Assembly (NCBI RefSeq): GCF_057098645.1
Contig: NZ_CM169472.1
Strand: one strand, 5' to 3'
Length of the DNA: 64,000 nucleotides
Under the pieces are notes generated by a model that did not search any database, was not told where the DNA came from, and worked only from the letters and a program-made list of their open reading frames with translations. Of this stretch, positions 1 through 64,000 are shown in pieces (position 1 is the first letter of the stretch; the number at the start of each line of letters is the position of its first letter). The translations under genes were made by a program, and so were the position numbers.

Positions 1-1014
1 AAATGCCCTGGCACCGAAGTGCGTGAAGAGTACAAACGTGGATTCGGCGTACCGACGCTGATTGCCGTTCACCCGGAAAACGATCCGAAAGGCGAAGGTA
101 TGGCGATCGCTAAAGCATGGGCGGCAGCAACCGGTGGTCACCGTGCGGGCGTGCTGGAATCGTCCTTCGTTGCGGAAGTGAAATCTGACCTGATGGGCGA
201 GCAAACCATTCTGTGCGGTATGTTGCAGGCTGGCTCGCTGCTGTGCTTCGACAAGCTGGTGGAAGAAGGCACCGACCCGGCATATGCAGAAAAACTGATT
301 CAGTTCGGCTGGGAAACCATCACCGAAGCGCTGAAACAGGGCGGCATCACCCTGATGATGGACCGTCTCTCTAACCCGGCGAAACTGCGTGCTTACGCGC
401 TGTCAGAACAGCTGAAAGAGATCATGGCGCCGCTGTTCCAGAAACATATGGACGACATCATCTCCGGCGAATTCTCCTCCGGTATGATGGCGGACTGGGC
501 CAACGATGATAAGAAACTGCTGACCTGGCGTGAAGAGACCGGCAAAACCGCGTTTGAAACCGCGCCGCAGTATGAAGGCAAAATCGGCGAGCAGGAGTAC
601 TTCGATAAAGGCGTACTGATGATCGCGATGGTGAAAGCGGGCGTTGAGCTGGCATTTGAAACCATGGTTGATTCCGGCATCATCGAAGAATCTGCTTACT
701 ATGAATCACTGCACGAACTGCCGCTGATTGCCAACACCATCGCCCGTAAGCGTCTGTACGAAATGAACGTGGTTATCTCTGATACCGCCGAGTACGGTAA
801 CTATCTGTTCTCTTACGCTTGTGTGCCGTTGCTGAAACCGTTTATGGCAGAGCTGCAACCGGGCGACCTGGGTAAAGCTATTCCGGAAGGTGCGGTAGAT
901 AACGCGCAACTGCGTGATGTGAACGAAGCGATTCGCAGCCATGCAATTGAGCAGGTAGGTAAGAAACTGCGCGGCTATATGACAGATATGAAACGCATTG
1001 CTGTTGCGGGTTAA
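1..1014 (+). CDS. ilvC: ketol-acid reductoisomerase, 3' portion; gene begins upstream of the window (ORF-track start at 19 is an artefact)
   Basis: 331-aa in-frame translation ending at stop 1012-1014 matches the C-terminal domain of KARI; convergent with ppiC across a shared hairpin. Confidence 0.9.
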
Positions 1015-1030
1015 TAGCGATTCAGAGTTC

Positions 1031-1055
1031 AAGGCCTTCTCCCGGAGAAGGCCTT
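1031..1055. terminator. bidirectional hairpin between convergent ilvC and ppiC
   Basis: inverted repeat aaggccttc / gaaggcctt immediately after both stop codons. Confidence 0.6.
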
Positions 1056-1059
1056 ACTG

Positions 1060-1365
<306 letters not shown>

Positions 1366-1539
1366 TCAGGCGGCGATTTTAGCATGATCCGCAGATGCTA
1401 ACGTAATTGTCAGTCAGGGAGGGGCTGGTACATATATGGCAAAAGCCCGGAAAATCCGGGCTTCGCAGGTCCCTCAAGGGGAGAAAACTTAGGGCCTCTA
1501 TGGGCTACAAAGTCATTATCGGGGATGGTGATTTTATTG

Positions 1540-2043
1540 TCAATTTATGAGCGATATGGCATTGATTGACTTGATGACCGCCCTCTGTATGTCTGCAACC
1601 AACTCATGTGGCAAACATTGATTAAGATACCCTCTGTAAGTTCTTGCTCTGTTTAATCTGTTTCGACTGACTTGTTGTACCAGGTCGGCTTTGGCCCAAC
1701 GAATCTGCTGATCAAAGAATTGCAGGTCATTGATAATATTACTGGCTATTTCAACATGCATTCCACGATTTAACTTGTCATGGTCGCGAGTGGTTGATAA
1801 TGGAACGACGATACATGCGTTGCCATTAATTTTTCCGTTGAGCACGACAACTAACCTGTTTTTTATCATTTCAGGAGGAATGCGGCCATCGTAATACGTG
1901 GTGCTGAACGGTCCATTTTGGCTAACAGGATAGTTACCAAAGTTGCATTCCAGTATTTCACCAACCTTAGGGCTGAAATTAATCGCCACGAGTAAACCTC
2001 TCCTTAGTAAACTCTGAAAAAGTAATAACACAACGTTACGACC
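1540..2043 (-). pseudogene. yifN: orphan PemK/MazF-family toxin-like ORF (yifN-like); 5' region abutted by IS2, no antitoxin partner visible; an intact reading frame from GTG at 2031 is possible
   Basis: translation contains MazF/PemK-like motifs (GEILECNFG..., PPEMIKNRLVVVLNG, ACIVVPLSTT); the ORF-track N-terminus (2044-2178) lies inside IS2 and is fortuitous. Confidence 0.5.
2039..2043. repeat. IS2 target-site duplication, left copy (CGACC)
   Basis: identical 5-mer directly flanks both IS2 termini (2039-2043 and 3375-3379). Confidence 0.8.
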
Positions 2044-2134
2044 TAGACTGGCCCCCTGAATCTCCAGACAACCAGTATCACTTAAATAAGTGATAGTCTT
2101 AATACTAGTTTTTAGACTAGTCATTGGAGAACAG

Positions 2135-2500
2135 ATGATTGATGTCTTAGGGCCGGAGAAACGCAGACGGCGTACCACACAGGAAAAGATCGCAATTGTT
2201 CAGCAGAGCTTTGAACCGGGGATGACGGTCTCCCTCGTTGCCCGGCAACATGGTGTAGCAGCCAGCCAGTTATTTCTCTGGCGTAAGCAATACCAGGAAG
2301 GAAGTCTTACTGCTGTGGCCGCCGGAGAACAGGTTGTTCCTGCCTCTGAACTTGCTGCCGCCATGAAGCAGATTAAAGAACTCCAGCGCCTGCTCGGCAA
2401 GAAAACGATGGAAAATGAACTCCTCAAAGAAGCCGTTGAATATGGACGGGCAAAAAAGTGGATAGCGCACGCGCCCTTATTGCCCGGGGATGGGGAGTAA
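2135..2500 (+). CDS. insC: IS2 OrfA (InsC), helix-turn-helix regulator/transposase N-terminal part
   Basis: 121-aa product [56 protein letters not shown]... Confidence 0.93.
2452..2458 (+). promoter_or_regulatory. programmed -1 ribosomal frameshift heptamer AAAAAAG joining insC to insD
   Basis: A6G motif sits in the orfA/orfB overlap, as in IS3-family elements. Confidence 0.7.
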
Positions 2501-3363
2501 GCTTAGTCAGCCGTTGTCTCCGGGTGTCGCGTGCGCAGTTGCACGTCATTCTCAGACGAACCGATGACTGGATGGATGGCCGCCGCAGTCGTCACACTGA
2601 TGATACGGATGTGCTTCTCCGTATACACCATGTTATCGGAGAGCTGCCCACGTATGGTTATCGTCGGGTATGGGCGCTGCTTCGCAGACAGGCAGAACTT
2701 GATGGTATGCCTGCGATCAATGCCAAACGTGTTTACCGGATCATGCGCCAGAATGCGCTGTTGCTTGAGCGAAAACCTGCTGTACCGCCATCGAAACGGG
2801 CACATACAGGCAGAGTGGCCGTGAAAGAAAGCAATCAGCGATGGTGCTCTGACGGGTTCGAGTTCTGCTGTGATAACGGAGAGAGACTGCGTGTCACGTT
2901 CGCGCTGGACTGCTGTGATCGTGAGGCACTGCACTGGGCGGTGACTACCGGCGGCTTCAACAGTGAAACAGTACAGGACGTCATGCTGGGAGCGGTGGAA
3001 CGCCGCTTCGGCAACGATCTTCCGTCGTCTCCAGTGGAGTGGCTGACGGATAATGGTTCATGCTACCGGGCTAATGAAACACGCCAGTTCGCCCGGATGT
3101 TGGGACTTGAACCGAAGAACACGGCGGTGCGGAGTCCGGAGAGTAACGGAATAGCAGAGAGCTTCGTGAAAACGATAAAGCGTGACTACATCAGTATCAT
3201 GCCCAAACCAGACGGGTTAACGGCAGCAAAGAACCTTGCAGAGGCGTTCGAGCATTATAACGAATGGCATCCGCATAGTGCGCTGGGTTATCGCTCGCCA
3301 CGGGAATATCTGCGGCAGCGGGCTTGTAATGGGTTAAGTGATAACAGATGTCTGGAAATATAG
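2458..3363 (+). CDS. insD: IS2 OrfB (InsD), DDE transposase catalytic part; normally expressed as an InsCD fusion
   Basis: 301-aa ORF with integrase-core (DDE) motifs, in the -1 frame relative to insC. Confidence 0.93.
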
Positions 3364-3374
3364 GGGCAAATCCA

Positions 3375-3379
3375 CGACC
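3375..3379. repeat. IS2 target-site duplication, right copy (CGACC)
   Basis: matches 2039-2043. Confidence 0.8.
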
Positions 3380-3541
3380 CGATATTTTCTAAGTCTAATG
3401 GATTCACGATGAACTCCGATTTCGGTCTTCTCTCTCTGATTTAAACATCCGCAGCCAACCGGTTAGCGGCTTACACGCGGTCACATTCAAATGCGATTCT
3501 GCTACAATCCTCCCCCCGTTCGAAGATTGAGCAATACACCT

Positions 3542-5563
3542 ATGCGTCTAAACCCCGGCCAACAACAAGCTGTCGAATTCGTTACCGGCCCCTGCCTGGT
3601 GCTGGCGGGCGCGGGTTCCGGTAAAACTCGCGTGATCACCAATAAAATCGCCCATCTGATCCGCGGTTGCGGTTATCAGGCGCGACATATCGCGGCGGTG
3701 ACCTTTACCAATAAGGCGGCGCGCGAGATGAAAGAGCGTGTAGGGCAGACGCTGGGGCGCAAAGAGGCGCGTGGGCTGATGATCTCCACTTTCCATACGT
3801 TGGGGCTGGATATCATCAAACGCGAGTATGCGGCGCTTGGGATGAAAGCGAACTTCTCGTTGTTTGACGATACCGATCAGCTTGCTTTGCTTAAAGAGTT
3901 GACCGAGGGGCTGATTGAAGATGACAAAGTTCTCCTGCAACAACTGATTTCGACCATCTCTAACTGGAAGAACGATCTCAAAACTCCGGCGCAGGCGGCG
4001 GCAGAGGCAAAGGGCGAGCGGGATCGTATTTTTGCCCATTGTTATGGGCTGTATGATGCACACCTGAAAGCCTGTAACGTTCTCGACTTCGATGACCTGA
4101 TTTTATTGCCGACGTTGCTGCTGCAACGCAATGAAGAAGTACGCGAACGCTGGCAGAACAAAATTCGCTACCTGCTGGTGGATGAGTATCAGGACACCAA
4201 CACCAGCCAGTATGAACTGGTGAAACTGCTGGTGGGCAGCCGCGCGCGCTTTACCGTGGTGGGTGACGATGACCAGTCGATCTACTCCTGGCGCGGTGCA
4301 CGTCCGCAAAACCTGGTGCTGCTGAGTCAGGATTTTCCGGCGCTGAAGGTGATTAAGCTTGAGCAGAACTATCGCTCTTCCGGGCGTATTCTGAAAGCGG
4401 CGAACATCCTGATCGCCAATAACCCGCACGTCTTTGAAAAGCGTCTGTTCTCCGAACTGGGTTACGGCACAGAGCTAAAAGTTTTAAGCGCGAATAACGA
4501 GGAACATGAAGCCGAGCGCGTTACTGGCGAGCTGATCGCCCATCACTTCGTCAATAAAACGCAGTACAAAGATTACGCCATTCTTTATCGCGGCAACCAT
4601 CAGTCGCGGGTATTTGAAAAATTCCTGATGCAAAACCGCATCCCGTACAAAATATCCGGTGGTACGTCGTTTTTCTCTCGTCCTGAAATCAAGGACTTGC
4701 TGGCTTATCTGCGCGTGCTGACTAACCCGGACGATGACAGCGCATTTCTGCGTATCGTTAACACGCCGAAGCGAGAGATTGGCCCGGCGACGCTGAAAAA
4801 GTTGGGTGAATGGGCGATGACGCGCAATAAAAGCATGTTTACCGCCAGCTTTGATATGGGCCTGAGTCAGACGCTTAGCGGACGTGGTTATGAAGCATTG
4901 ACCCGCTTCACTCACTGGTTGGCAGAAATCCAGCGTCTGGCGGAGCGGGAGCCGATTGCCGCGGTGCGTGATCTGATCCATGGCATGGATTATGAATCCT
5001 GGCTGTACGAAACATCGCCCAGCCCGAAAGCCGCCGAAATGCGCATGAAGAACGTCAACCAACTGTTTAGCTGGATGACGGAGATGCTGGAAGGCAGTGA
5101 ACTGGATGAGCCGATGACGCTCACCCAGGTGGTGACGCGCTTTACTTTGCGCGACATGATGGAGCGTGGTGAGAGTGAAGAAGAGCTGGATCAGGTGCAA
5201 CTGATGACTCTCCACGCGTCAAAAGGACTGGAGTTTCCTTATGTCTACATGGTCGGTATGGAAGAAGGGTTTTTGCCGCACCAGAGCAGTATCGATGAAG
5301 ATAATATCGATGAGGAGCGGCGGCTGGCCTATGTCGGCATTACCCGCGCCCAGAAGGAATTGACCTTTACGCTGTGTAAAGAACGCCGTCAGTACGGCGA
5401 ACTGGTGCGCCCGGAGCCGAGCCGCTTTTTGCTGGAGCTGCCGCAGGATGATCTGATTTGGGAACAGGAGCGCAAAGTGGTCAGCGCCGAAGAACGGATG
5501 CAGAAAGGGCAAAGCCATCTGGCGAATCTGAAAGCGATGATGGCGGCAAAACGAGGGAAATAA
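3542..5563 (+). CDS. rep: ATP-dependent DNA helicase Rep (SF1)
   Basis: 673-aa product from ATG 3542 ([29 protein letters not shown]...), Walker A and UvrD/Rep helicase motifs; the ORF-track start at 3491 is an upstream extension. Confidence 0.95.
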
Positions 5564-5567
5564 TCAA

Positions 5568-5601
5568 GGCCGGAAAAGATGCGTCAGCATCGCATCCGGC
5601 A
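5568..5601. repeat. REP-like palindromic element / terminator between convergent rep and gppA
   Basis: gccggaaaagatgcgtcagcatcgcatccggc inverted repeat. Confidence 0.6.
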
Positions 5602-5609
5602 CTTACTCA

Positions 5610-7094
5610 TTAATGCACTTCCAGCGGCCAGTGGACATAGCTCTGCCACTGGCTTTCCTGAGCAATAATCTCTTTACCCAGCGGATGTTGGGTTAGCCAA
5701 CCTTGCGGAAGCGTCAAGGTCAACAGTTCATGGTTAGCCTGTAATGTCATCTCTGGCACGAGATCGTCACGGCGACGGCTGGCAAAAATGATGGCCAGGC
5801 GTAGTAAACGGCAGAGTTGTTCTGCGACGCGCGGCGGTACGGCATTTTGCTGATGCAGCGATGAGAGATCGATCGGATTAGTCTGGTTGAGCAGTAGTGT
5901 CGCCAGCAATTTTTTCTGTGCGGGGGTAAAACCGGGAAGATCCAGATTACGCACCAGATAAGCAGCGTGTTGCGGCGCTTGTTTGAAGTCAACGCTCAGG
6001 CCGATTTCATGAAGCTGACAGGCGCTGATGAGCAAATCGCGGCTTATTGCTTCAAGATGCCATTCGTTTTCCACCTGATCGAAGAAGTTAGCCGCAACTT
6101 TGGCTACGCGCTGTGCCTGATCAATATCGATCATAAAGCGGCGTTGAATATTACGCAGCGTACGGCTGCGAATATCCTGCTCGACGGCCAGATGCAACAT
6201 GCCGTAGACCAGGCCTTCACGCAGCGCACCGCCCGCCAGGGTCATACACTGAATATTCAGTTCGGTAAAAATGGCGATCAGGATCGCCAGACCACTCGGG
6301 AACACTAACGCACGTTCCAGCGTCAGCCCGTCAATCTCTAGCTCTTCCAGCCGACCGCAATGAATGGCGCGTTGTTTCAGTTGCTGCAACTTTTCCAGGG
6401 TAATGCGTTCATCCATCCCCTGTGCCATCATGATTTCCTGTAACGCCTGCACGGTGCCGGAAGCACCAACGCACACTTTCCAGCCGTGATACCGTAATTC
6501 ATCGGCAACCGGACGTAACACTTCGCGTGCCGCTTTTTCTGCAGCATCAAAATTTTCCTGCCCCAGATTACGATCGGCAAAATAGCGTTCCAGCCAGGTG
6601 ACGCAGCCCATCGACAGGCTGAACAACGAGGTGGTTTGTGCACCCGTGCCGGTTACCAGTTCAGTACTGGCTCCGCCTATATCCACCACCAGGCGCTGAT
6701 CGGCACCACCAGTGGTGTGAGCAACGCCCTGATAAATCAGACGTGCTTCCTCTTCACCGCTGATCACCTGTACCGGACAACCGAGAATTTCCTGCGCTTT
6801 GGCAATAAAATCACCCGCATTGACGGCAAGGCGTAACGTCGCCGTAGCGACAACGCGAATTTGCGAGGGAGGAATATCTTGCAGACGTTCAGCAAACAGG
6901 CGCAGACATTGCCAACCGCGCTCCATTGCTTCATTGGAGAGGGCATTTTCGCTATTCAGGCCAGCAGCCAGACGCACTTTGCGTTTTATTCGCGTCAGCG
7001 TCTGGATGCTTCCAGCCACCTCGCGCACAACCAGCATATGAAAACTATTCGAACCGAGATCAATGGCTGCATACAGCGACGAGGTGGAACCCAT
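5610..7094 (-). CDS. gppA: guanosine pentaphosphate phosphohydrolase / exopolyphosphatase
   Basis: Ppx/GppA-family [26 protein letters not shown]... N-terminus. Confidence 0.93.
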
Positions 7095-7139
7095 ACTCTT
7101 CATCCTTCAATCTGTCTCTGTGTTGGCTGCATTCTTTCA

Positions 7140-7171
7140 CCTGAATCACTTACTACAGTAAGTGATTCAGG
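7140..7171. terminator. perfect 15-bp-arm inverted repeat (2-nt spacer) between the rhlB 3' end and gppA 5' end
   Basis: cctgaatcacttact-ac-agtaagtgattcagg. Confidence 0.5.
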
Positions 7172-7227
7172 ATTCATTCTCTTGCCATCTTGATACAGTT
7201 TGAATGATTTTGAGTATGACATTTTAT

Positions 7228-8493
7228 TTAACCTGAACGACGACGATTACGCGGAGCGCCAGTACGACGCGGACCATTGCCTGTACGTGGGCGCGTGAGG
7301 CGCAGCGGTTTTGGCAGATCGGTCATCAATGTGTCCGGATTGTATTTGCTTACCGGAATTGAGTGACCAATATAGGTTTCAATAGCAGGCAAATTCAATG
7401 CATACTCTTCACACGCCAGGCTGATAGAGTGACCGCTTGCGCCTGCGCGACCTGTACGACCAATACGGTGAACGTAATCTTCACAGTCATCGGGTAAATC
7501 GTAGTTAAAGACGTGCGTCACTGCCGGAATATGCAAACCACGCGCGGCAACGTCGGTGGCAACCAGAATATCCAGATCGCCACGGGTAAATTCATCAAGA
7601 ATACGCAGACGTTTTTTCTGCGCGACATCGCCTGTCAACAAACCGACACGATGACCATCTGCCGCCAGGTGGCCCCAGATCTCTTCACAACGGTGTTTGG
7701 TATTGGCGAAAATAATCGCTCTGTCTGGCCACTCTTCTTCGATCAGCGTTTGCAGCAAACGCATTTTTTCTTCGTTAGAAGGGTAGAAAAGCTCTTCTTT
7801 AATACGGTGGCCCGTTTTCTGTTCCGGTTCCACTTCAATATATTCGGCATTGTTCATCTGCTCGAACGCCAGTTCACGTACCCGGTACGAAAGCGTGGCG
7901 GAGAACAGCATGTTGAGGCGCTGGTTTGCAGGCGGCATACGGCGGAACAGCCAGCGGATATCTTTAATAAAGCCCAGATCGTACATGCGATCGGCTTCGT
8001 CCAGTACCACTACCTGAATGGCACCGAGGTTAATGTGGTTCTGCTTGGCGTAGTCAATTAAACGACCCGTGGTGCCAATCAGAATGTCAACGCCGCTTTC
8101 CAGCACTTTCAGCTGTTTGTCGTAACCATCACCACCGTAAGCCAGACCCAGCTTCAGGCCGGTAGCTTCCGCCAGCGGTTCCGCATCGGCATGGATCTGC
8201 ACGGCAAGTTCACGCGTCGGTGCCATAATTAAGGCACGCGGCTGATTCACCTTGCGATCGGCAATCGCAGGATGAGAGAGAAGATAATGAAACGTTGACG
8301 TAAGAAACGCCATCGTTTTCCCGGTACCGGTTTGCGCCTGCCCGGCTACGTCACGACCCGCCAGCGTCAGCGGAAGGGCCAGTGCCTGAATGGGCGTACA
8401 GTTATGAAACCCTTTTTTTTCAAGGGCTTCTACAACCTTCGGATGCAGGGCGAAGTCGGAAAACTTCTGTTCTGTTAAATGTGTTTTGCTCAT
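7228..8493 (-). CDS. rhlB: ATP-dependent RNA helicase RhlB (degradosome DEAD-box helicase)
   Basis: 421-aa ORF with DEAD-box motifs ([12 protein letters not shown]), Arg-rich C-terminus. Confidence 0.95.
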
Positions 8494-8953: not shown

Positions 8954-9093
8954 GGGAATTTCATGTTCGGGTGCCCCGTCGCTAAAAACTGGACGCCCGG
9001 CGTGAGTCATGCTAACTTAGTGTTGACTTCGTATTAAACATACCTTATTAAGTTTGAATCTTGTAATTTCCAACGCTTCCCATTTTATCTTAA

Positions 9094-9195
9094 ATGCGAA
9101 GTGAACAGATTTCTGGCTCGTCGCTCAATCCGTCTTGTCGTTTCAGTTCTGCGTACTCTCCTGTGACCAGGCAGCGAAAAGACATGAGTCGATGA
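9094..9195 (+). CDS. rhoL: rho operon leader peptide (attenuation region upstream of rho)
   Basis: 33-codon ORF MRSEQISGSSLNPSCRFSSAYSPVTRQRKDMSR in the long rho leader. Confidence 0.75.
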   Translation: MRSEQISGSSLNPSCRFSSAYSPVTRQRKDMSR

Positions 9196-36983: not shown

Positions 36984-38309
36984 TCAGGGCTTCAAAGTTT
37001 GCACCTCTGCGGCTGCGTTACGGCATGATTCATCCGTCAACGGAATAATAATGTCTCTGTTGTGAAGTTCGCGCACATTCTCTTCTCTGACGCGTGTTTT
37101 CGCCGGGCAGGGGGAGGGTGTAATCCTTACCTCTGTATCGGTCCATGTATAAACATTGCGATCGTCATAAGCGAAGCGATCGTTTTTAGTTAGCGGACCG
37201 TTAACTGGAATAATTTGCACGCTCTTTGACCGTAATTGGCGGATAAAATAAGCATGCTGTTTGCCGCTATTAAATGAGTGATCAATGACCAGGTCTGGCG
37301 TATCCAGCGGGATTATCTCAAGCTGGTCTTCACCAAATGTCGATAATTTTGTTACATACAACCGATCTTTATATTGCGCAATATTGCCAGTAATCAGATG
37401 AAATTGTTCAGGTTCAATACCTGGTAGGTCTATCCACTTGCTCCACTGACGGTCGGGCGTGAGCTGTTTACGCCAGCGAACGCGACTTTCCCCTACTTCA
37501 AAAGAGACGTCATCATCTACGGGTATCGCTTTGCCAGACAATTGCCCAAAGGGATAACGATGCAGACCCTTATTGTCGCGAAAAACCAGCAGTGAATGAG
37601 GTATCCAGCGAATTATCTCAAATGAGTCTGCATTCGCTGTAAGGTGAACGGCATTTAAATAAATATTCTGCCCACTGCGGATAAGCAGATCATTGGAATA
37701 CAAATTTCTGTTTACACTCATAAGACGTGGATTAATACCCCACCATCTTTTTTCTAATACAGTAACATTATTGCTGCTCCCCTGACGTCGACCGGACAAA
37801 TAGAGATTTTTACTATCCACCAGCGTGGTAGAGTTACCTTCGATAGCTTTTAGTGTCGCCAGATCAACACGTGACGCGCCGCTATTACTTTCGGTGCGCT
37901 GTCCATCAAAATAGAGGCTATATTTATCGACCGCGAAGCGGCCCATAGCCTGAAAGCTGGCAATATCGACAGTGGGTGTTCCCGGTGGATTGCTAACGAT
38001 TTTGCCACGCCAGAGAATAACGCGGCCGTCTGTCACCCAGTGGTATTCCTCATTTTTTATGCTTATTTCATCAGTGGGTATATAGCCTTCCACTAACTCC
38101 CGCTCCCCGGATATATTTGTCACAAGGCGCAAATCGGCTCTGTTCATCTTCGGAAATTGGGCAATGATTTTCTCATCCTCCCCATAACCTTTACCGTAAG
38201 ACATAACACCGTGATCATTGTAATAGTCGAACCCTATGGCCTGTGCAGCAGGTGTCAGAAATGTGTGCCCCAACAGGATGAGTGCAACTGTGATTATTTG
38301 ACCCTTCAT
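36984..38309 (-). CDS. secreted repeat protein with DKNYY-like motifs (paralog A), Sec signal peptide, function unknown
   Basis: 441-aa ORF; N-terminus MKGQIITVALILLGHTFLTPAAQA; repeated D-x-N-x-VY-type motifs (DDRNVYTWTD, DKYSLYFDGQRT); clear paralogy with the upstream ORF; ATGA start/stop overlap at 38306-38309. Confidence 0.7.
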   Translation of the reverse strand: MKGQIITVALILLGHTFLTPAAQAIGFDYYNDHGVMSYGKGYGEDEKIIAQFPKMNRADLRLVTNISGERELVEGYIPTDEISIKNEEYHWVTDGRVILWRGKIVSNPPGTPTVDIASFQAMGRFAVDKYSLYFDGQRTESNSGASRVDLATLKAIEGNSTTLVDSKNLYLSGRRQGSSNNVTVLEKRWWGINPRLMSVNRNLYSNDLLIRSGQNIYLNAVHLTANADSFEIIRWIPHSLLVFRDNKGLHRYPFGQLSGKAIPVDDDVSFEVGESRVRWRKQLTPDRQWSKWIDLPGIEPEQFHLITGNIAQYKDRLYVTKLSTFGEDQLEIIPLDTPDLVIDHSFNSGKQHAYFIRQLRSKSVQIIPVNGPLTKNDRFAYDDRNVYTWTDTEVRITPSPCPAKTRVREENVRELHNRDIIIPLTDESCRNAAAEVQTLKP

Positions 38310-39814
38310 TTTGTCGCCTCATTGCGCGGGGCAGGAATAAATTCGCCGTCATCGGTAATTTTTCCGTCCAGATATCCCGTTTTGTAATTTACCCCGTAGC
38401 CATATCCCGAATGTTGTTCCTTCCAGATTAAGCGAACTTGTTTCGGATCAGCGGTGCGGTATCGCCAGAGCTGCGCGCCATCAAAGCTGTAAACGTAGCG
38501 GTTATCGCGGGCATACCATCTGCGCAAAAAGGGATGGTCATTAAGATGGGCTTCGCGTTCATCCGGAGAACGGTTATCCAGTAAGAGCAGCGGTCCGTCA
38601 GATTCAAACACGTGTAAACCGGAATGGTATGGCCACCCTTCGGCACGCGTAAGTAAATAGCCGTGGCGTTTCCCGGCGTTGAAACGTTTGTTGATAATAA
38701 GATTGGGATCATCAAGTTTCACGATCTCCAGCTTGCGGTCACCAGACTCTGTTTCGATGATGGTATAAAGCGAGTCCTGATACTGTGCGACAGCATCACT
38801 GATGGGGTGAAACTGTTCCGGATCGAGTCCCGGTAATTCTTCCTGTTTACAGTCAGGCCCCTGACGCCAGAACACTTTCTTTTCCAGCAGAGAAAAATCC
38901 AGACAGTGCTTTGTTAAATCCTCATCCCACGCCAGATTTTCCTTGTCGAGGACTTTACGCTGTAGCCCGTTTTTATCACGCCAGGTCAAGAGTGAGCCGG
39001 GCATCCAGCGCACGACGGAAAAGGTGTCCGGGTCGGCAACAAGCTGTTCACCGTTGATCAGGATTTTGGTCCGTGTACGAGCCAGGGTATCCCAGGGGCC
39101 GAATGGTACGGCAACGCAGGGGTTAAACGTGGTGGAAAACTTTCCTCGCTGATCCCAGGACTTCTGCGCCAGCACACGGAAACTCTCGGGGTCAGCGAGG
39201 CGATGCCCATTGATATACAAGAAATTAGCGTCACGTAATATCAGCCCCAGTAAGTCAGGAGCCCAGGGAGGCCGGAATTCCACCTGATGCAGCGTTTTGA
39301 TATCTAAGCTATTTCTCCCACCATTGTCATCGGTGCGCTTGCCTTCAAAATAGAGACTGTGTTTATCTGCAGCAAAATCACCCCATGCCTTGAACGAGGC
39401 GACATCGACGGGAGGTGTGCCGGGAGGGTTTTGCACAACTTCACCCGCGTAGAGGATATTGCGACCATCGCTATACCAGGAATAATGAGGATACCAGGCC
39501 TGTGCGCCCTCATAGAGGTAGTCGGTTGTCAAATCAGTCTGAGGCGGTTCTTTATCCCATTCGTCTAGTGTTGTCGGGTCTATTAATAAATTGGGTAACC
39601 GACGCAAACTCTTGTAATTCACGTCAGGTAGAGAAAGATTTGTTTCTTTATAAGGGCGCAGGTACACCACGCCTTTTCCCTGTTTCTGGTAAATATTATG
39701 TTCAGGTGCGGAAAGCCGACATCCCCATGCCGATGATAAGACCAATGAACAAGCCAACAAACAAACCACATTGCGATAGTGCATAAAGCCATCCTGGCGC
39801 GAGGTGCCGATCAC
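38306..39814 (-). CDS. secreted or lipoprotein repeat protein with DKNYY-like motifs (paralog B), function unknown; true start may be the internal ATG at 39784
   Basis: 502-aa ORF; hydrophobic N-terminus VVCLLACSLVLSSAWGC; shares NPPGTPxVDxASFxAxGxFAxDKxSLYFxGxRT and LPGxxPEQFH blocks with paralog A. Confidence 0.7.
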   Translation of the reverse strand: MIGTSRQDGFMHYRNVVCLLACSLVLSSAWGCRLSAPEHNIYQKQGKGVVYLRPYKETNLSLPDVNYKSLRRLPNLLIDPTTLDEWDKEPPQTDLTTDYLYEGAQAWYPHYSWYSDGRNILYAGEVVQNPPGTPPVDVASFKAWGDFAADKHSLYFEGKRTDDNGGRNSLDIKTLHQVEFRPPWAPDLLGLILRDANFLYINGHRLADPESFRVLAQKSWDQRGKFSTTFNPCVAVPFGPWDTLARTRTKILINGEQLVADPDTFSVVRWMPGSLLTWRDKNGLQRKVLDKENLAWDEDLTKHCLDFSLLEKKVFWRQGPDCKQEELPGLDPEQFHPISDAVAQYQDSLYTIIETESGDRKLEIVKLDDPNLIINKRFNAGKRHGYLLTRAEGWPYHSGLHVFESDGPLLLLDNRSPDEREAHLNDHPFLRRWYARDNRYVYSFDGAQLWRYRTADPKQVRLIWKEQHSGYGYGVNYKTGYLDGKITDDGEFIPAPRNEATK

Positions 39815-48751: not shown

Positions 48752-49243
48752 CTAAAAATTGTCTTTTTTAAAGTCATGCGGATTGAAAACTCGCTCTATT
48801 TTATTTTCTTGTGTTAATTGATACTCAGTAAAATCGTTAATACCAATATGAGTGTTACGATAAGGGTATTCATTAATAACCATTAAGTAATTTTTCACGA
48901 TGCAATTATCATTGCTCTTAATTGTCGGGAAACAGTAGAGATCTTCATACGGCCCTTCGATATATTTTTTATAGTCAGTGAAGCCATTACCGATATCAAT
49001 GACATACCAGATATGCCAACTACCTTCTGGTAGGGGATGTTGATTTTTAATTTCATTCTGATGCTTCAGATACCAATTTATTTTATCGCTGTCAGTCCAT
49101 GGCAGATGATCAACGACCAGAAAGACTGAATTGCCAGCATCAGAGTATGTATACAAAATCTGTACAGGACGCAATGTCCATAAATTATAGATACAGCATA
49201 GAAGAAATAAACATAATATAATTTTCTGGCGTTTGCTTTTCAT
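48752..49243 (-). CDS. hypothetical membrane-anchored protein (N-terminal TM helix, extracytoplasmic domain); candidate partner of the upstream gene
   Basis: 163-aa ORF MKSKRQKIILCLFLLCCIYNLWTL...; very AT-rich codon usage; starts 27 bp after the upstream gene's stop. Confidence 0.6.
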   Translation of the reverse strand: MKSKRQKIILCLFLLCCIYNLWTLRPVQILYTYSDAGNSVFLVVDHLPWTDSDKINWYLKHQNEIKNQHPLPEGSWHIWYVIDIGNGFTDYKKYIEGPYEDLYCFPTIKSNDNCIVKNYLMVINEYPYRNTHIGINDFTEYQLTQENKIERVFNPHDFKKDNF

Positions 49244-49270
49244 AGATAATTTTCGATTCTTTCGATAGTG

Positions 49271-50084
49271 TTAAAATTGGTGAAAAAAGGTTTGAAAGCA
49301 AAGCCTTTATGCCGTTGTAAAAAGAACCATATGCGAAAAAATCTATATTTGCTGTAAGTCTTGTTTTTGATATCAGTTACATCAAGACCGAAGTGGTCCT
49401 GTGCTACAAAATGAATTGTCGCACTCCACCCTATAGCGTATTTTTGAAAGCTTAAAAGAGATATTTTTTGAGCTGAAATATCATGAACACTGATTCCTAA
49501 GCCATTAAAACTGTCCTCGAAGTCATTAAATTTATTTAGTCTTGATGAAAGTAATTTGGTTTTAATGCTTTGCAGGATAAGAGGTTGGTATCCTGTCGAG
49601 GGAGTTGAATTAATGCCATTTTCGATACATTCTTTGATTATTCGTATTGGACTATTATAACCATATTTATTTTTTCATGAAAAGATAAATTTAATTGTTG
49701 GCTATGAAAATTGCTGCCATTTCCATATCTAAAATGTTCAATCAGATCTTCGATAAGTGTTTTATATTGTCCAAAAAAGGAAAAAATTTTTGCTAGTTCT
49801 TTCATTTCTGCAAATAAAATATCAGTGCATTCACGTTGTGATATTTTTGTTCCGGAACTTGAGGCACTAAAAGCAACATTAATAGAACCTGGGCCAGGGA
49901 AATGGTATTTAATAAGTCTGTAAGGATCAACTTTTGCTGAGATATCGCTTAGGCCGAGTGAGAGAAAATCTTGTTCTACCATATCACCATATTGCATATC
50001 ATCAGCAGAATAATCATCAAATAAACTAATAGTTTCGAAAAGTGTACAGGGAATATTAATTGATGGAAGTAATGTGTTATTCAT
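49271..50084 (-). pseudogene. hypothetical protein of about 270 aa interrupted by a -1 frameshift at an A6 run (148-aa N-terminal ORF plus about 125 in-frame codons lacking any start codon)
   Basis: ORF 49638-50084 ends ...SFHEKINMVIIVQYE*; the next frame stays open from the overlap catgAAAAAAtaaatatgg down to the stop at 49271 and contains no ATG/GTG/TTG. Confidence 0.6.
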
Positions 50085-50209
50085 TTACATTTTCCTTGGT
50101 TATATTTAAGCTCAATATCAATTTGAGAACAAATGCTAGGGTAAAAAAAATTTAAAAAAGAAGTACACTTCACATTTTTATTACATTCCGAAGGGAATCT
50201 CGTTATTGA

Positions 50210-50413
50210 TTGGTTTTGCCCATTGTTAATAACAATATGTTGAATTTACCGATTAGGAAACTTTTTCCTACGCGGATTGCCTCCAGCTATGGGATGAACT
50301 TTGAGTTTATGCCAGAACTGAAGTGGAGTTTCGGCTACCCTGGCGCGATTATCTTTATGATCCTCGCGGGCCTGGCACCGCATCTGTACTTTAAGCGTAA
50401 GAACTGGCTGTAA
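50210..50413 (+). pseudogene. displaced corA 3' fragment (last ~46 codons, [11 protein letters not shown] end); not an independent gene
   Basis: 67-aa ORF whose C-terminal 45 residues equal the CorA C-terminus with one Y to H change; no corA N-terminal region upstream. Confidence 0.8.
50277..50413 (+). repeat. direct repeat copy 2 of the corA 3' terminus
   Basis: offset of exactly 1703 bp from copy 1. Confidence 0.85.
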
Positions 50414-50419
50414 CTATAC

Positions 50420-50462
50420 GATGTCGCTGTGAGTAAGTTAGTGTGCTGACAGCGACATTTTA
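50420..50462. terminator. hairpin terminator after the displaced corA 3' end, shared with the convergent DUF805 gene
   Basis: gatgtcgctgt...acagcgacat inverted repeat followed by tttag. Confidence 0.6.
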
Positions 50463-50824
50463 GCCGAGGGAATCGCAGATAACATAATTGTTGTGAATAA
50501 TATCCATGCCACGTTGAGTTGGACGCTTAATGACTCACATCTCACCCCTTCAATTGCTGCAGAGATAATAGAAAAAAGTGTTAAACCCAATGAAATCAAT
50601 ACAAAGTAGATTGCCTTACATCCAGTATCTCTTATTCTTTTTGCTCCAATATTGATATTTACATAGGTATTATTAATAACCAGAATAAAACTCAAAGCCA
50701 GGTTGATATCATTCAAAGTTATTAATATTGACCATGATGTTAATGTATAGATTATGAACTGAAAGCGTGATAAACGCTCAAGCCTGGATGGGTAGAATAT
50801 ATTTCTGATGGATGATTTGAACAT
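50438..50824 (-). CDS. DUF805-family small inner-membrane protein (yigF-like position)
   Basis: 128-aa ORF with 3-4 TM segments and a KRIRDTG motif resembling the DUF805 RRxHD signature; AT-rich. Confidence 0.6.
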   Translation of the reverse strand: MFKSSIRNIFYPSRLERLSRFQFIIYTLTSWSILITLNDINLALSFILVINNTYVNINIGAKRIRDTGCKAIYFVLISLGLTLFSIISAAIEGVRCESLSVQLNVAWILFTTIMLSAIPSAKMSLSAH

Positions 50825-61146: not shown

Positions 61147-63408
61147 ATGACAATATTGAATCACACCCTCGGTTTCCCTCGCGTTGGCCTGCGTCGCGAG
61201 CTGAAAAAAGCGCAAGAGAGTTATTGGGCGGGGAACTCCACGCGTGAAGAACTGCTGGCGGTAGGGCGTGAATTGCGTGCTCGTCACTGGGATCAACAAA
61301 AGCAAGCGGGTATCGACCTGCTGCCGGTGGGCGATTTTGCCTGGTACGATCATGTACTGACCACCAGTCTGCTGCTGGGTAACGTTCCAGCGCGTCATCA
61401 GAACAAAGATGGTTCGGTAGATATCGACACCCTGTTCCGTATTGGTCGTGGACGTGCGCCGACTGGCGAACCTGCGGCGGCAGCGGAAATGACCAAATGG
61501 TTTAACACCAACTATCACTACATGGTGCCGGAATTCGTTAAAGGCCAACAGTTCAAACTGACCTGGACGCAGCTGCTGGAGGAAGTGGACGAGGCGCTGG
61601 CGCTGGGCCACAACGTTAAGCCTGTGCTGCTGGGGCCGGTTACCTGGCTGTGGCTGGGGAAAGTGAAAGGTGAACAGTTTGACCGCCTTAGCCTGCTGAA
61701 CGCCATTCTGCCGGTTTATCAGCAAGTGCTGGCAGAACTGGCGAAACGCGGCATCGAGTGGGTACAGATTGATGAACCCGCGCTGGTACTGGAACTACCA
61801 CAGGCGTGGCTGGACGCATACAAACCCGCTTACGACGCGCTCCAGGGACAGGTGAAACTGCTGCTGACCACCTATTTTGAAGGCGTAACGCCAAATCTCG
61901 ACACGATTACTGCGCTGCCTGTTCAGGGGCTACATGTGGACCTTGTACATGGTAAAGATGACGTTGTTGAACTGCACAAGCGCCTGCCTTCTGACTGGCT
62001 GCTGTCTGCGGGTCTGATCAATGGTCGTAACGTCTGGCGCGCCGATCTTACCGAGAAATATGCGCAAATTAAGGACATTGTCGGCAAACGTGATTTGTGG
62101 GTGGCATCTTCCTGCTCGTTGCTGCACAGCCCCATCGACCTGAGCGTGGAAACGCGTCTTGATGCAGAAGTGAAAAGCTGGTTTGCCTTCGCCCTACAAA
62201 AATGCCATGAACTGGCACTGCTGCGCGATGCGCTGAACAGTGGTGACACGGCAGCTCTGGCAGAGTGGAGCGCCCCAATTCAGGCGCGTCGTCACTCTAC
62301 TCGTGTACATAATCCGGCGGTAGAAAAGCGTCTGGCGGCGATCACCGCCCAGGACAGCCAGCGTGCGAATGTCTATGAAGTGCGTGCTGAAGCCCAGCGT
62401 GCGCGTTTTAAACTGCCAGCGTGGCCGACCACCACGATTGGTTCCTTCCCGCAAACCACGGAAATTCGTACCCTGCGTCTGGATTTCAAAAAGGGCAATC
62501 TCGACGCCAATAACTACCGCACGGGCATTGCGGAACATATCAGGCAGGCCATTGTTGAACAGGAACGTTTGGGACTGGATGTGCTGGTACATGGCGAGGC
62601 CGAGCGTAATGACATGGTGGAATACTTTGGCGAGCACCTCGACGGGTTTGTCTTTACGCAAAACGGTTGGGTACAGAGCTACGGTTCCCGCTGCGTGAAG
62701 CCACCGATTGTTATTGGTGACGTTAGTCGCCCGGCACCGATTACCGTGGAGTGGGCGAAGTATGCGCAATCTCTGACTGATAAACCGGTGAAAGGGATGC
62801 TGACTGGCCCGGTGACCATTCTCTGCTGGTCGTTCCCGCGTGAAGATGTCAGCCGTGAAACCATCGCCAAACAAATTGCGCTGGCGCTGCGTGATGAAGT
62901 GGCGGACCTGGAAGCCGCAGGAATTGGCATCATCCAGATTGATGAACCGGCGCTGCGCGAAGGTTTACCGCTGCGTCGTAGCGACTGGGATGCATATCTC
63001 CAGTGGGGCGTGGAGGCCTTCCGTATCAACGCCGCCGTGGCGAAAGATGACACACAAATCCACACTCACATGTGTTATTGCGAGTTCAACGACATCATGG
63101 ATTCGATTGCGGCACTGGACGCAGACGTCATCACCATCGAAACCTCGCGTTCTGACATGGAGTTGCTGGAGTCGTTCGAAGAGTTTGATTATCCGAATGA
63201 AATCGGTCCAGGCGTCTATGACATTCACTCGCCAAACGTACCGAGCGTGGAATGGATTGAAGCCTTGCTGAAGAAAGCGGCAAAACGCATTCCGGCAGAG
63301 CGCCTGTGGGTCAACCCGGACTGTGGCCTGAAAACGCGCGGCTGGCCAGAAACCCGCGCGGCACTGGCGAACATGGTGCAGGCGGCGCAGAACTTGCGTC
63401 GGGGATGA
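61147..63408 (+). CDS. metE: cobalamin-independent methionine synthase
   Basis: 753-aa [33 protein letters not shown]... Confidence 0.96.
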
Positions 63409-63518
63409 TGAATATTAACGAGTCACTGTAAATTGCAGTACGATGAAAGAGGCAAAACTGCCTGATACCAGGCCTACATAATTTATGCAATTTATTGAAT
63501 TTTAGGGTTTTGTTGGCT

Positions 63519-63548
63519 GGACAAGGCGTTCACGCCGCATCCGGCATG
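63519..63548. repeat. REP element downstream of metE
   Basis: ggacaaggcgttcacgccgcatccggcatg. Confidence 0.7.
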
Positions 63549-63692
63549 AACAACGCGCACTTTGCCAATAATCTGATGGCTTCCATCACCGGAAGCCATT
63601 TTGCTATCTGCGCCCGTTCAGATACAGAAATAACCGAATCATTTTTACGCAAAATATAATCCTGAGCGATTTGTTCAGTAATCAACGCTACG

Positions 63693-63968
63693 TTATTTAT
63701 TCTCACTTTTCACGAAATTGTATCCCTTTTCAGTAACGTGGTAGTGAGGCATAGACTTATGTCCGCTATCCTCAATAATAACCAAACCCTCGTTAGCTAA
63801 TTTGTTAACAATGTTAACAACATTACCGAATCCTGGAATTTGCCTTATGGATAGTGTGCGATCGAGATTCATCCAGTTCCAGTTTATATCTTTCTCAGCC
63901 ATAACTTTCAGTACGTTAATTTCAGTTTCAGTTATCATAGTCAAGTGCATCCTGGTGGTATAAGTCAT
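63693..63968 (-). CDS. small winged-helix (MarR/PadR-like) DNA-binding protein, hypothetical; AT-rich accessory ORF
   Basis: 91-aa ORF with strong RBS (aagggagaa) 8 bp before ATG 63968; abrupt drop in GC relative to metE. Confidence 0.55.
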   Translation of the reverse strand: MTYTTRMHLTMITETEINVLKVMAEKDINWNWMNLDRTLSIRQIPGFGNVVNIVNKLANEGLVIIEDSGHKSMPHYHVTEKGYNFVKSENK

Positions 63969-64000
63969 TAAGTTCTCCCTTAAGTTTATAATCTTCTAGA

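What the first reader, a model, noticed from the sequence alone, without database searches (positions are those of the whole stretch)
63560..64000. AT-rich small winged-helix ORF after metE at the window edge, probably the start of another accessory insertion
After the REP element downstream of metE the composition switches to AT-rich. A 91-aa minus-strand ORF with a strong RBS encodes a wHTH-like protein (VLKVMAEK...IRQIPGFGNVVNIVNKLANEGLVIIED). From my recollection of the K-12 gene order, a hydrolase gene is expected here, so this looks like a strain-specific replacement. Small wHTH proteins at island borders are often regulators or antitoxin-like components. The window ends 32 bp beyond its start codon, so any partner genes are out of view.
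Basis: partly seen in the sequence, partly recalled or inferred. Interest (0 to 1): 0.4.

Follow-up and report, generated by a model that had tools for sequence, protein, structure and literature searches.

The report
Immunity gene of an Hcp-fused toxin
The small AT-rich gene after metE is most likely the self-protection (immunity) gene for a type VI secretion toxin fused to an Hcp tube protein, whose gene starts just past the window edge. This is a known kind of module, but this toxin/immunity family is uncharacterised and databases label the immunity protein a MarR regulator.

Summary
The ORF is real (63693..63968, minus strand) and the switch to AT-rich sequence is real. An AlphaFold model (pLDDT 93) is a winged helix. 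Family conservation starts at the internal ATG at 63938, so the conserved product is 81 aa, not 91.

Extending the sequence in identical E. coli O145:H28 genomes shows a 2.07-kb, 40% GC island inserted between metE and ysgA. ysgA is retained, so this is an insertion and not a replacement.

The island encodes a 382-aa Hcp protein with a C-terminal toxin domain. Its stop overlaps the small ORF's start by 11 nt. Homologues of the small ORF follow the same toxin domain on four different carriers: Hcp, a DUF8093 protein, a 4193-aa Rhs protein and an unknown protein. They also persist as orphan copies beside Imm35 genes, or after the toxin has been inactivated.

I conclude it is the cognate immunity protein, not a MarR regulator. 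The toxin domain is all-alpha, has no Pfam or PDB relative, and is not an HNH nuclease.

This is a new member of a known kind, of moderate interest.

The parts
63693..63938 (-). Immunity gene, conserved 81-aa form (PGAP WP_000627421.1). Winged-helix protein, the predicted inhibitor of the C-terminal toxin domain of the upstream Hcp fusion.
   Evidence: ORF. PGAP call in identical genomes. Start conserved in 8 loci. AF2 pLDDT 93 winged helix. Linked to the toxin domain on four carriers.
63939..63968 (-). Optional 5' extension (10 codons, MTYTTRMHLT) that gives the 91-aa ORF. It is preceded by GGGAG at 63975-63979 and lies inside the toxin coding sequence.
   Evidence: This ATG is present only in O145 and Citrobacter L009. 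It is absent in Atlantibacter, UTI89 and the orphan copies.
63928..64000 (-). Last 24 codons and the stop of the Hcp-ET toxin gene (382 aa in RM12761). The gene runs on to about 65076 in extended coordinates, and its stop overlaps the immunity start by 11 nt.
   Evidence: L002 8529-9677 maps to window 63928-65076. Hcp domain: TIGR03344 at 1.6e-36 and PF05638 at 6.8e-14.
63405..64000 (.). Left part of a 2,075-bp, 40% GC island (extended coordinates 63405-65479) inserted between the convergent metE and ysgA genes. It replaces the 55-bp K-12 spacer.
   Evidence: blastn of K-12 against O145 gives breakpoints at L002 8005 and 10081. GC is 0.399 in the island against 0.559 and 0.546 in the flanks.
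63523..63545 (-). REP element copy inside the island's metE-proximal end.
   Evidence: Three copies in the window, 0 expected by chance. The 601-bp query hit a median of 9 places per genome.
63530..63652 (-). 40-aa 'hypothetical protein' of PGAP (WP_001230617.1). Probably not a gene, because its 3' part is REP sequence and it has no family hit.
   Evidence: (no hits for the 58-aa ORF that contains it). This stretch is absent from the UTI89 version of the locus.
63576..63599 (.). Perfect 9-bp hairpin (ATGGCTTCC-N6-GGAAGCCAT), about 95 nt downstream of the immunity stop. Possibly a transcript end; not established.
   Evidence: The terminator scan was at chance level.

Best explanation
The ORF encodes the cognate immunity protein of an 'evolved' Hcp effector (Hcp-ET type). 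It is carried on a 2-kb orphan island between metE and ysgA.

The upstream gene has three parts:
- an Hcp tube domain (residues 1-147);
- a shared linker (about 150-235) that contains a Gly/Ala-rich hydrophobic segment;
- a 134-aa all-alpha toxin domain (249-382) of unknown activity.

The 81-aa winged-helix protein is translated from a start that overlaps the toxin's stop. I infer that it binds the toxin domain 1:1 and blocks it, protecting the producer and its kin.

Published comparisons report no complete T6SS in O145:H28, and many O145:H28 genomes have an IS3 element in the toxin gene. In this lineage the gene therefore probably acts only defensively. It would neutralise residual endogenous toxin, or the same toxin injected by neighbouring Enterobacteriaceae, which is the role of an orphan immunity gene.

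Shown: the gene order, the overlap, the fold, the linkage to the toxin domain across carriers, the orphan copies, and the covariation.
Inferred: the binding and neutralisation, the toxicity of the domain, and the defensive role.
For: 1. In identical O145:H28 genomes the ORF is the gene directly downstream of a 382-aa tssD with a 235-aa C-terminal extension. They share a strand and overlap by 11 nt.

2. The same toxin domain sits on a non-Hcp carrier in Atlantibacter (DUF8093 per precomputed Pfam) at 75% identity over residues 172-382. It is followed by a 67%-identical homologue of the ORF with the same 11-nt overlap.

3. Distant family members P0164 and P0170 (38-39% identity) lie 4 nt overlapped after a 4193-aa RHS-repeat protein and after a >=518-aa protein. 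The extreme C-termini of both are this toxin domain (hhalign E 5e-60 and 4.8e-57).

4. The C. koseri Hcp shares residues 1-235 but carries a different C-terminal tip, and a different small ORF follows it. The family member in that locus is an orphan copy lying after an Imm35 gene.

5. Orphan and retained copies occur elsewhere:
- UTI89 and ATCC 11775 have the toxin inactivated (W98*), followed by a cognate paralogue (59% identity) and an orphan copy (88% identity) next to metE.
- In IS3-disrupted O145 genomes the immunity gene is unchanged.

6. Toxin and immunity identities co-vary over 15 pairs (Spearman 0.84), and the immunity protein diverges faster.

7. The family is small: 75 representatives among 1.84 billion proteins, nearly all about 80 aa and single-domain.

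8. The Hcp-ET concept, with downstream immunity genes, was shown experimentally by Ma et al. 2017, as summarised in PMC6730261 and PMC6099711.
Against:
- I could find no precedent for a winged-helix immunity protein, and its closest solved structures are all DNA-binding regulators.
- The protein is near neutral (pI 6.3) and the toxin domain is acidic (pI 5.0), so there is no obvious charge complementarity.
- The same toxin domain at 50% identity in a Pantoea S-type pyocin is followed by an unrelated 86-aa ORF.
- In Microcoleus a standalone copy of the toxin domain is followed by a HicB-like protein.
- One homologue (P0161) sits alone on a plasmid with no adjacent toxin.
- O145:H28 is reported to lack a complete T6SS (PMC9144400, PMC5567499), so the module may simply be decaying.
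Confidence: 0.85

Rival explanations
1. It is a small MarR/PadR-like winged-helix transcription factor, as NCBI names it, that regulates the island or neighbouring genes by binding DNA.
For: The high-confidence winged-helix model superposes on the DNA-binding proteins RosR, MepR, MexR and ZitR with TM 0.7-0.82. Source names read 'MarR family transcriptional regulator'. There are weak sub-threshold hits to HTH_45, EarA and Lrs14.
Against: - All profile hits are far below the curated cut-offs (14 bits against 25.5; 14.7 against 90).
- At 81 aa it has no MarR N- or C-terminal dimerisation helices.
- Across 63 members the recognition helix (40-49) and the wing (57-63) are variable, and at most 22% of residues are basic. 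The conserved motif, WxW(Y/M)xLDRxL, lies in strand 1 and helix 2.
- Gene position and linkage follow a toxin domain and not a regulon.
Confidence: 0.06
2. It has a dual function. It is the immunity protein and also uses its winged helix to auto-repress the hcp-ET/immunity operon, as type II antitoxins do.
For: The fold is that of a DNA binder. The toxin domain also occurs as a standalone 136-aa protein followed by a HicB-like antitoxin-type protein in Microcoleus, so this toxin lineage does mix with toxin-antitoxin-style partners. 21 of 63 family members have pI above 8.
Against: - There are no conserved basic residues where a winged helix contacts DNA.
- The gene is downstream of the toxin, not upstream.
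- Orphan copies sit behind unrelated genes such as Imm35, with no shared promoter region beyond about 20 nt.
- Promoter-like sites in the island are at chance level.
Confidence: 0.12
3. The pair works as a chromosomal toxin-antitoxin or addiction module, independently of any secretion system. The Hcp domain would then be a relic.
For: O145:H28 is reported to lack a complete T6SS, yet some strains keep an intact 382-aa gene. A standalone toxin with a HicB-like partner exists in cyanobacteria.
Against: - The toxin is always at the extreme C-terminus of secretion or delivery carriers in proteobacteria: Hcp, Rhs and S-type pyocin.
- The Hcp domain is well conserved (67-79% identity to other Hcp-ETs).
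- The toxin gene is repeatedly inactivated by IS3 or by W98* while the immunity gene persists. This is the opposite of addiction.
Confidence: 0.05
4. The ORF is a chance open frame in AT-rich DNA.
For: It is short, AT-rich and has no curated family hit.
Against: It is conserved at 38-89% identity in Escherichia, Shigella, Citrobacter, Atlantibacter, Mangrovibacter and metagenomes. The AF2 model has pLDDT 93. The start codon is conserved.
Confidence: 0.01

Closest known systems
Hcp-ET / ETI effector-immunity modules of Enterobacteriaceae (Ma et al. 2017, Virulence 8:1189, as summarised in PMC6730261, PMC6099711 and PMC9990079)
   Same: An Hcp tube domain is fused to a C-terminal toxin, and a small immunity gene lies immediately downstream. 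The module is an orphan island outside T6SS clusters. Immunity copies can be duplicated or orphaned. The Hcp domain is 67% identical to that of UTI89 Hcp-ET3-4.
   Different: - The toxin tip matches none of the five named clans: no HNH, DUF2235, Pyocin_S, colicin-DNase or peptidase domain. hhalign against UTI89 Hcp-ET3-4 gives probability 0.1%.
- The immunity protein is a winged helix and not a Colicin_Pyocin (PF01320) protein.
- The host lineage reportedly lacks a complete T6SS.
- The primary paper was not available to me, so I cannot exclude that it lists this tip among its unclassified Hcp-ETs.
Rhs-CT/RhsI and CdiA-CT/CdiI polymorphic toxin-immunity cassettes with orphan immunity arrays
   Same: One C-terminal toxin domain is swapped between unrelated delivery scaffolds together with its immunity gene. 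The reading frames overlap. Displaced orphan immunity genes accumulate at the 3' end of the locus. The immunity protein evolves faster than the toxin.
   Different: Here the carrier is Hcp. Neither the toxin domain nor the immunity family is in Pfam or NCBIfam.
S-type pyocin / colicin nuclease-immunity pairs
   Same: The toxin domain is 50% identical to the C-terminal killing-domain position of a 745-aa Pantoea S-type pyocin (Pyocin_S, PF06958), which is followed by a small ORF.
   Different: That small ORF is unrelated to the winged-helix family. The toxin is an all-alpha domain with no match to solved HNH or colicin DNase, rRNase or tRNase structures, despite the 'HNH endonuclease' and 'colicin' labels in some RefSeq records.
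MarR / PadR / RosR winged-helix regulators
   Same: Same core fold, H1-b1-H2-H3-b2-wing-b3 plus one C-terminal helix, with TM up to 0.82.
   Different: Sequence identity is 12-22%. It has about half the length of a MarR protein and no dimerisation helices. The recognition surface is not conserved, and the genomic context is toxin-linked.

Membership tests
Hcp-ET effector / ETI immunity module | The upstream protein has an N-terminal Hcp (TssD) domain and a C-terminal extension of more than 60 aa. | tested here: met
   PF05638 at 6.8e-14 over residues 6-135; TIGR03344 at 1.6e-36 over 1-147; total length 382 aa. Matches PDB Hcp 6a2v at 1e-14.
Hcp-ET effector / ETI immunity module | A small ORF lies immediately downstream on the same strand, as the immunity candidate. 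| tested here: met
   11-nt overlap of stop and start in O145, Citrobacter and Atlantibacter; 4-nt overlap in UTI89, L022 and L024.
Hcp-ET effector / ETI immunity module | The C-terminal tip belongs to one of the five described clans: HNH-DNase, DUF2235, Pyocin S, colicin-DNase or papain-like peptidase. | tested here: not met
   No Pfam or NCBIfam hit at E<=1 for residues 188-382 or 236-382. Unrelated to UTI89 Hcp-ET3-4. The model is all-alpha, not a beta-beta-alpha-Me fold.
Hcp-ET effector / ETI immunity module | The toxin is delivered by a T6SS, and its toxicity is neutralised by the downstream protein. | not testable with these tools
   This needs competition and co-expression assays. The literature reports no complete T6SS in O145:H28 (PMC9144400, PMC5567499).
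Polymorphic-toxin immunity protein (generic) | It co-occurs with one toxin domain whatever the N-terminal carrier. | tested here: met
   Seen with Hcp, DUF8093, 4193-aa RHS and an unknown >=518-aa carrier.
Polymorphic-toxin immunity protein (generic) | Orphan copies occur in immunity arrays, or are retained after the toxin is lost. | tested here: met
   Citrobacter copies lie after Imm35 genes. UTI89 and ATCC 11775 carry an orphan copy next to metE. IS3-split toxin genes keep an intact immunity gene.
Polymorphic-toxin immunity protein (generic) | The immunity protein co-varies with the toxin and diverges faster. | tested here: met
   Spearman 0.84 over 15 pairs. Toxin identity is 59-81% against 29-79% for the immunity protein. 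The pairs are not phylogenetically independent.
Polymorphic-toxin immunity protein (generic) | It binds and inhibits the toxin domain directly. | not testable with these tools
MarR family transcriptional regulator (the database name) | It scores above the curated threshold for a MarR or related HTH profile. | tested here: not met
   The best Pfam hit is HTH_45 at E 0.04, 14.4 bits against a 25.5 cut-off. There is no MarR hit. The best NCBIfam hit is Lrs14 at 14.7 bits against 90. The PDB profile search gives a MarR at E 0.14.
MarR family transcriptional regulator (the database name) | It has a roughly 140-aa architecture with N- and C-terminal dimerisation helices flanking the winged helix. 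| tested here: not met
   It is 81 aa, with only H1-b-H2-H3-wing-H4. Foldseek target coverage is TMt 0.4-0.6.
MarR family transcriptional regulator (the database name) | [quoted passage not shown] | tested here: met
   pLDDT 93; TM 0.82 to RosR and 0.77 to MepR.
MarR family transcriptional regulator (the database name) | It has a conserved, basic DNA-contacting recognition helix and wing. | tested here: not met
   Positions 40-49 and 57-63 show top-residue frequency of at most 0.5 (apart from the buried L47) and a basic fraction of at most 0.22 in 63 members. This does not by itself exclude DNA binding.
HNH / colicin DNase toxin (RefSeq names for the partner's C-terminal fragment) | It has a beta-beta-alpha-metal fold or an HNH / Col-Pyo_DNase profile match. 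| tested here: not met

The most novel reading that the evidence does not exclude
The partner toxin domain, with its conserved SGR...H..RF...D..FYTHE.RE..RY...W..HTATLE motif set, may be a new fold with a new biochemical activity. It is shared by T6SS Hcp and Rhs effectors, S-type pyocins and a cyanobacterial toxin-antitoxin-like pair. The 81-aa protein would then be the first described winged-helix-type immunity family. It would use a DNA-binding scaffold to plug an enzyme, possibly by mimicking a nucleic-acid-binding partner, or by doubling as a regulator.
Probability: 0.3. Interest if true: 0.55.

Novelty: new member of a known kind. Interest (0 to 1): 0.35.

Why it matters
- It corrects a widespread annotation. 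A protein seen on at least 1000 contigs is named 'MarR family transcriptional regulator', and its partner's C-terminal fragment is named 'HNH endonuclease' or 'colicin'.
- It defines a compact toxin/immunity pair that is easy to test. The toxin domain has no structural or profile relative, yet it is used by at least four delivery systems.
- It gives a clean natural example of an immunity gene kept in a lineage that has reportedly lost the secretion machine and often the toxin as well. This bears on how orphan immunity genes shape competition among gut Enterobacteriaceae, including STEC O145:H28.
- The general principle, an Hcp-fused effector with a downstream immunity gene, is already established, so the advance is incremental.

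Tried and rejected
- **Family libraries.** Pfam and NCBIfam scans of the ORF, the 58-aa neighbouring ORF and the toxin tip gave only sub-threshold hits or none.
- **PDB sequence/profile searches.** Searches with the immunity and toxin alignments found nothing significant.
- **Primary paper.** Ma et al. 2017 could not be read by DOI or by PMC id, so the clan comparison rests on reviews and on my own test against UTI89 Hcp-ET3-4.
- **Pantoea pyocin.** I asked whether the small ORFs next to the Pantoea pyocin belong to the winged-helix family. They do not.
- **C. koseri alternative immunity ORF.** It is also unrelated.
- **Promoter and terminator scan of the island.** Counts were at chance level.
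- **Literature searches.** No paper describes a winged-helix immunity protein or mentions the RefSeq accessions.
- **Context of the Pseudomonas indica toxin homologue.** It is not on record.
- **Identifying the source strain, to learn whether its toxin gene is intact.**
  - The last 25 kb match RM12761 and RM13516 (both with an intact toxin) marginally best: 46132 bits against 46126 or less.
  - All complete genomes differ from the window by a 4-nt length difference.
  - The window also has an IS2 near 2.0-3.4 kb that none of the O145 genomes shows.
  - The strain is therefore not in the collection, and the question stays open.

Full report
**Observation**

The window ends with metE (61147..63408, plus strand). 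After it come a REP copy at 63523-63545 and a fall in GC from 0.52-0.60 to 0.35-0.45.

A GGGAG sequence lies 6 nt upstream of its ATG.

**Identity of the window and extension**

The last 601 bases are 100% identical to many E. coli O145:H28 chromosomes. In those genomes (L001 = RM9872, L002 = RM12761; window coordinate = L002 coordinate + 55399) the gene order is:

- metE
- REP
- a 40-aa 'hypothetical' ORF
- the small ORF, which PGAP calls at 81 aa (63693..63938)
- a tssD gene of 382 aa whose stop overlaps the small ORF's start by 11 nt
- ysgA
- udp

.

Alignment with K-12 puts the breakpoints at L002 8005 and 10081. This defines a 2,075-bp island (window 63405 to extended coordinate 65479) that replaces the 55-bp metE/ysgA spacer. 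The island is 0.399 GC against 0.559 and 0.546 for its flanks.

ysgA, the 'expected hydrolase', is retained. This is an insertion, not a replacement. The window holds only the last 73 nt of the toxin gene.

**Which start codon**

Homologues in Escherichia, Shigella, Citrobacter, Atlantibacter, Mangrovibacter and metagenomes align from 'MITETE(L/I)NVLKVMAEK', which begins at M11 of the 91-aa ORF.

In eight loci the ATG (GTG in one) at that position is always present. The ATG 30 nt upstream exists only in O145 and in one Citrobacter locus.

The conserved product is therefore 81 aa. In O145 the longer form is possible and has the better Shine-Dalgarno sequence, but it would only add a 10-residue tail that is encoded inside the toxin gene.

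**Fold**

An AF2 model built from a 15-sequence alignment has mean pLDDT 93. Its elements are H4-15, a short strand, H22-31, H40-49, hairpin 53-56/65-68 and H70-80.

The top Foldseek PDB hits are RosR (TM 0.82), MepR, MexR, ZitR and PadR proteins, at 12-22% identity. The winged-helix guess is right.

Three things argue against a regulator:

- Profile hits to HTH families are all far below threshold.
- The protein has none of the MarR dimerisation helices.
- In 63 family members the conserved positions are L10, W20, W22, L25, D26, R27, L29, L47, G51, Y66 and G72, which form a core plus a WxWxxLDRxL motif. The recognition helix and the wing are variable and poor in basic residues.

The protein's pI is 6.3.

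**The partner**

The 382-aa protein has three regions:

- An Hcp domain at residues 1-147 (PF05638 at 6.8e-14; TIGR03344 at 1.6e-36; PDB Hcp 6a2v at 1e-14).
- A linker at about 150-235, which includes the hydrophobic stretch GLLIAGASIVAGAVLG.
- A C-terminal domain at about 249-382.

It is therefore not an HNH or colicin DNase fold, although some RefSeq records give those names to the fragment left by an IS3 insertion.

It is also unrelated to the characterised UTI89 Hcp-ET3-4 (Hcp + Pyocin_S + Col-Pyo_DNase, with PF01320 immunity genes). That protein shares only the Hcp domain, at 67% identity.

Conserved polar residues suggest an enzyme: SGR, H53, R56, R69, D84, H90-E91, R93-E94, R97 and H121...E126. 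Its activity is unknown.

**Why the small ORF is the immunity gene**

- (a) In Atlantibacter the same C-terminal region (75% identity over residues 172-382) sits on a different N-terminal carrier (DUF8093 by precomputed Pfam). It is followed by a 67%-identical homologue of the ORF with the same 11-nt overlap.
- (b) In Citrobacter a 79%-identical Hcp-ET is followed by a 79%-identical homologue.
- (c) An exhaustive profile search found only 75 representatives among 1.84 billion proteins.
  - Two distant ones (38-39% identity) lie, with a 4-nt overlap, after a 4193-aa RHS-repeat protein and after a >=518-aa protein.
  - The C-termini of both are this toxin domain (hhalign E 5e-60 and 4.8e-57).
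- (d) A C. koseri Hcp shares residues 1-235 but has another tip. It is followed by an unrelated small ORF, and the family member in that locus is an orphan behind an Imm35 gene.
- (e) In UTI89 and ATCC 11775 the metE locus has a homologous Hcp-ET with a premature stop (W98*), then an 85-aa paralogue (59% identity), then an 81-aa orphan copy (88% identity) next to metE.
- (f) Toxin and immunity identities co-vary (Spearman 0.84 over 15 non-independent pairs), and the small protein diverges faster.

This is the behaviour of polymorphic toxin-immunity cassettes. It also fits the Hcp-ET/ETI arrangement shown experimentally by Ma et al. 2017, as summarised in PMC6730261, PMC6099711 and PMC9990079.

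**Distribution and state in this lineage**

- 113 of 5,426 complete E. coli genomes carry this exact arrangement next to metE.
- 848 genomes carry a related hcp-ET/immunity locus.
- metE..ysgA is a listed variable region (GR29) in B2 strains (PMC12928451).
- Most O145:H28 genomes have an IS3 inside the toxin gene. RM12761 and RM13516 have it intact.
- Published comparisons find only 5 of 22 T6SS-2 genes, and no T6SS-1 or T6SS-3 genes, in O145:H28. They also find that OI-7 is absent (PMC9144400, PMC5567499).

I infer that the toxin cannot be delivered here. The immunity gene would then serve against residual self-toxin or against attack by neighbours that carry the same effector.

Whether the window's own strain has an intact toxin gene cannot be read from the window. 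Its last 25 kb match the intact-toxin strains marginally best. The strain is not in the collection, because it has an IS2 insertion near 2-3.4 kb that the O145 genomes lack.

**Wider relatives of the toxin domain**

- It forms the C-terminal end of a 745-aa Pantoea S-type pyocin (50% identity), which is followed by an unrelated small ORF.
- It occurs as a standalone 136-aa protein in Microcoleus, followed by a HicB-like protein.

One toxin lineage is therefore paired with at least three different inhibitor families.

**Verdict**

The finding is real. It is explained as the immunity gene of an orphan Hcp-fused T6SS effector island, which is a known kind of system. This particular toxin domain and the winged-helix immunity family are undescribed in the libraries and papers I could search, and both are misnamed in public annotation.

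- Confidence that it is an immunity protein: 0.85.
- The mechanism, direct occlusion of the toxin, is inferred and not shown.

Noticed in passing
L002 8529-8972 (extended window coordinates 63928-64371); only 63928-64000 is inside the window: The toxin domain of the Hcp fusion is all-alpha (AF2 pLDDT 90) and has no Pfam, NCBIfam or PDB relative. It also appears on RHS, DUF8093 and S-type pyocin carriers, and as a standalone 136-aa protein next to a HicB-like gene in Microcoleus. Its activity is unknown.
   Followed up: partly
L001 13053-14266 (RM9872); not in the window: An IS3-family element splits the hcp-ET gene in most O145:H28 complete genomes. RM12761 and RM13516 keep it intact, and the immunity gene is identical in all of them.
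   Followed up: partly
L017 2515-4222 (UTI89) and L018 (ATCC 11775): B2 strains carry, at the same metE locus, a homologous Hcp-ET with a premature stop (W98*) followed by two tandem winged-helix paralogues (85 aa cognate, 81 aa orphan). On the other side, accessory genes (hxlB, ptsG-like) follow the hcp-ET gene within the stretch fetched, and ysgA is not in that stretch.
   Followed up: partly
L002 residues 172-235 of the Hcp-ET (DNA about 8973-9164): A linker with a Gly/Ala-rich hydrophobic stretch (GLLIAGASIVAGAVLG) is shared by Hcp-ETs with different toxin tips and by the Atlantibacter DUF8093 carrier. It could be a pre-toxin or membrane-entry module.
   Followed up: no
window 63530-63652 (-): PGAP annotates a 40-aa hypothetical protein whose 3' part is REP sequence. 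It has no family hits and is probably not a gene.
   Followed up: partly
P0185 (522 aa) and P0202 (352 aa): Two proteins contain 7 and 4 tandem copies of the winged-helix immunity-like domain. They may be fused immunity arrays.
   Followed up: no
L020 3501-3746 (plasmid CP023526.1): A family member (P0161, 81 aa) sits alone on a Rep3-type plasmid with no adjacent toxin gene. It may be a mobile orphan immunity gene.
   Followed up: no
window 1540-1989 (-): A solitary PemK/MazF-family toxin gene (149 aa, PF02452 at 9.4e-11) lies between ppiC and rep. No antitoxin is annotated beside it in RM12761.
   Followed up: partly
window about 2050-3400: An IS2 (IS3-family) element with a 301-aa transposase ORF at 2458..3363 is inserted between the PemK-like gene and rep. 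RM12761 lacks it at this site, and no O145 genome was among the best matches to window 1-8000. The source strain is therefore not in the collection.
   Followed up: partly
window 36984-39814 (-): Two adjacent large hypothetical proteins (441 aa and about 492-502 aa) lie between cyaY and lptM. They give only weak DKNYY-family hits (E about 4e-5, just below the cut-off). This is an accessory insertion of unknown function.
   Followed up: partly
window about 48752-50470 (-): A DUF943 protein and a YPO3983-family protein follow corA, according to the RM12761 annotation. This is another small accessory pair.
   Followed up: no
L006 3175-4595 (Atlantibacter): A second DUF8093 protein (377 aa), followed by a 97-aa ORF, lies directly upstream of the first pair. 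It looks like a tandem toxin/immunity cassette on an uncharacterised carrier domain.
   Followed up: no
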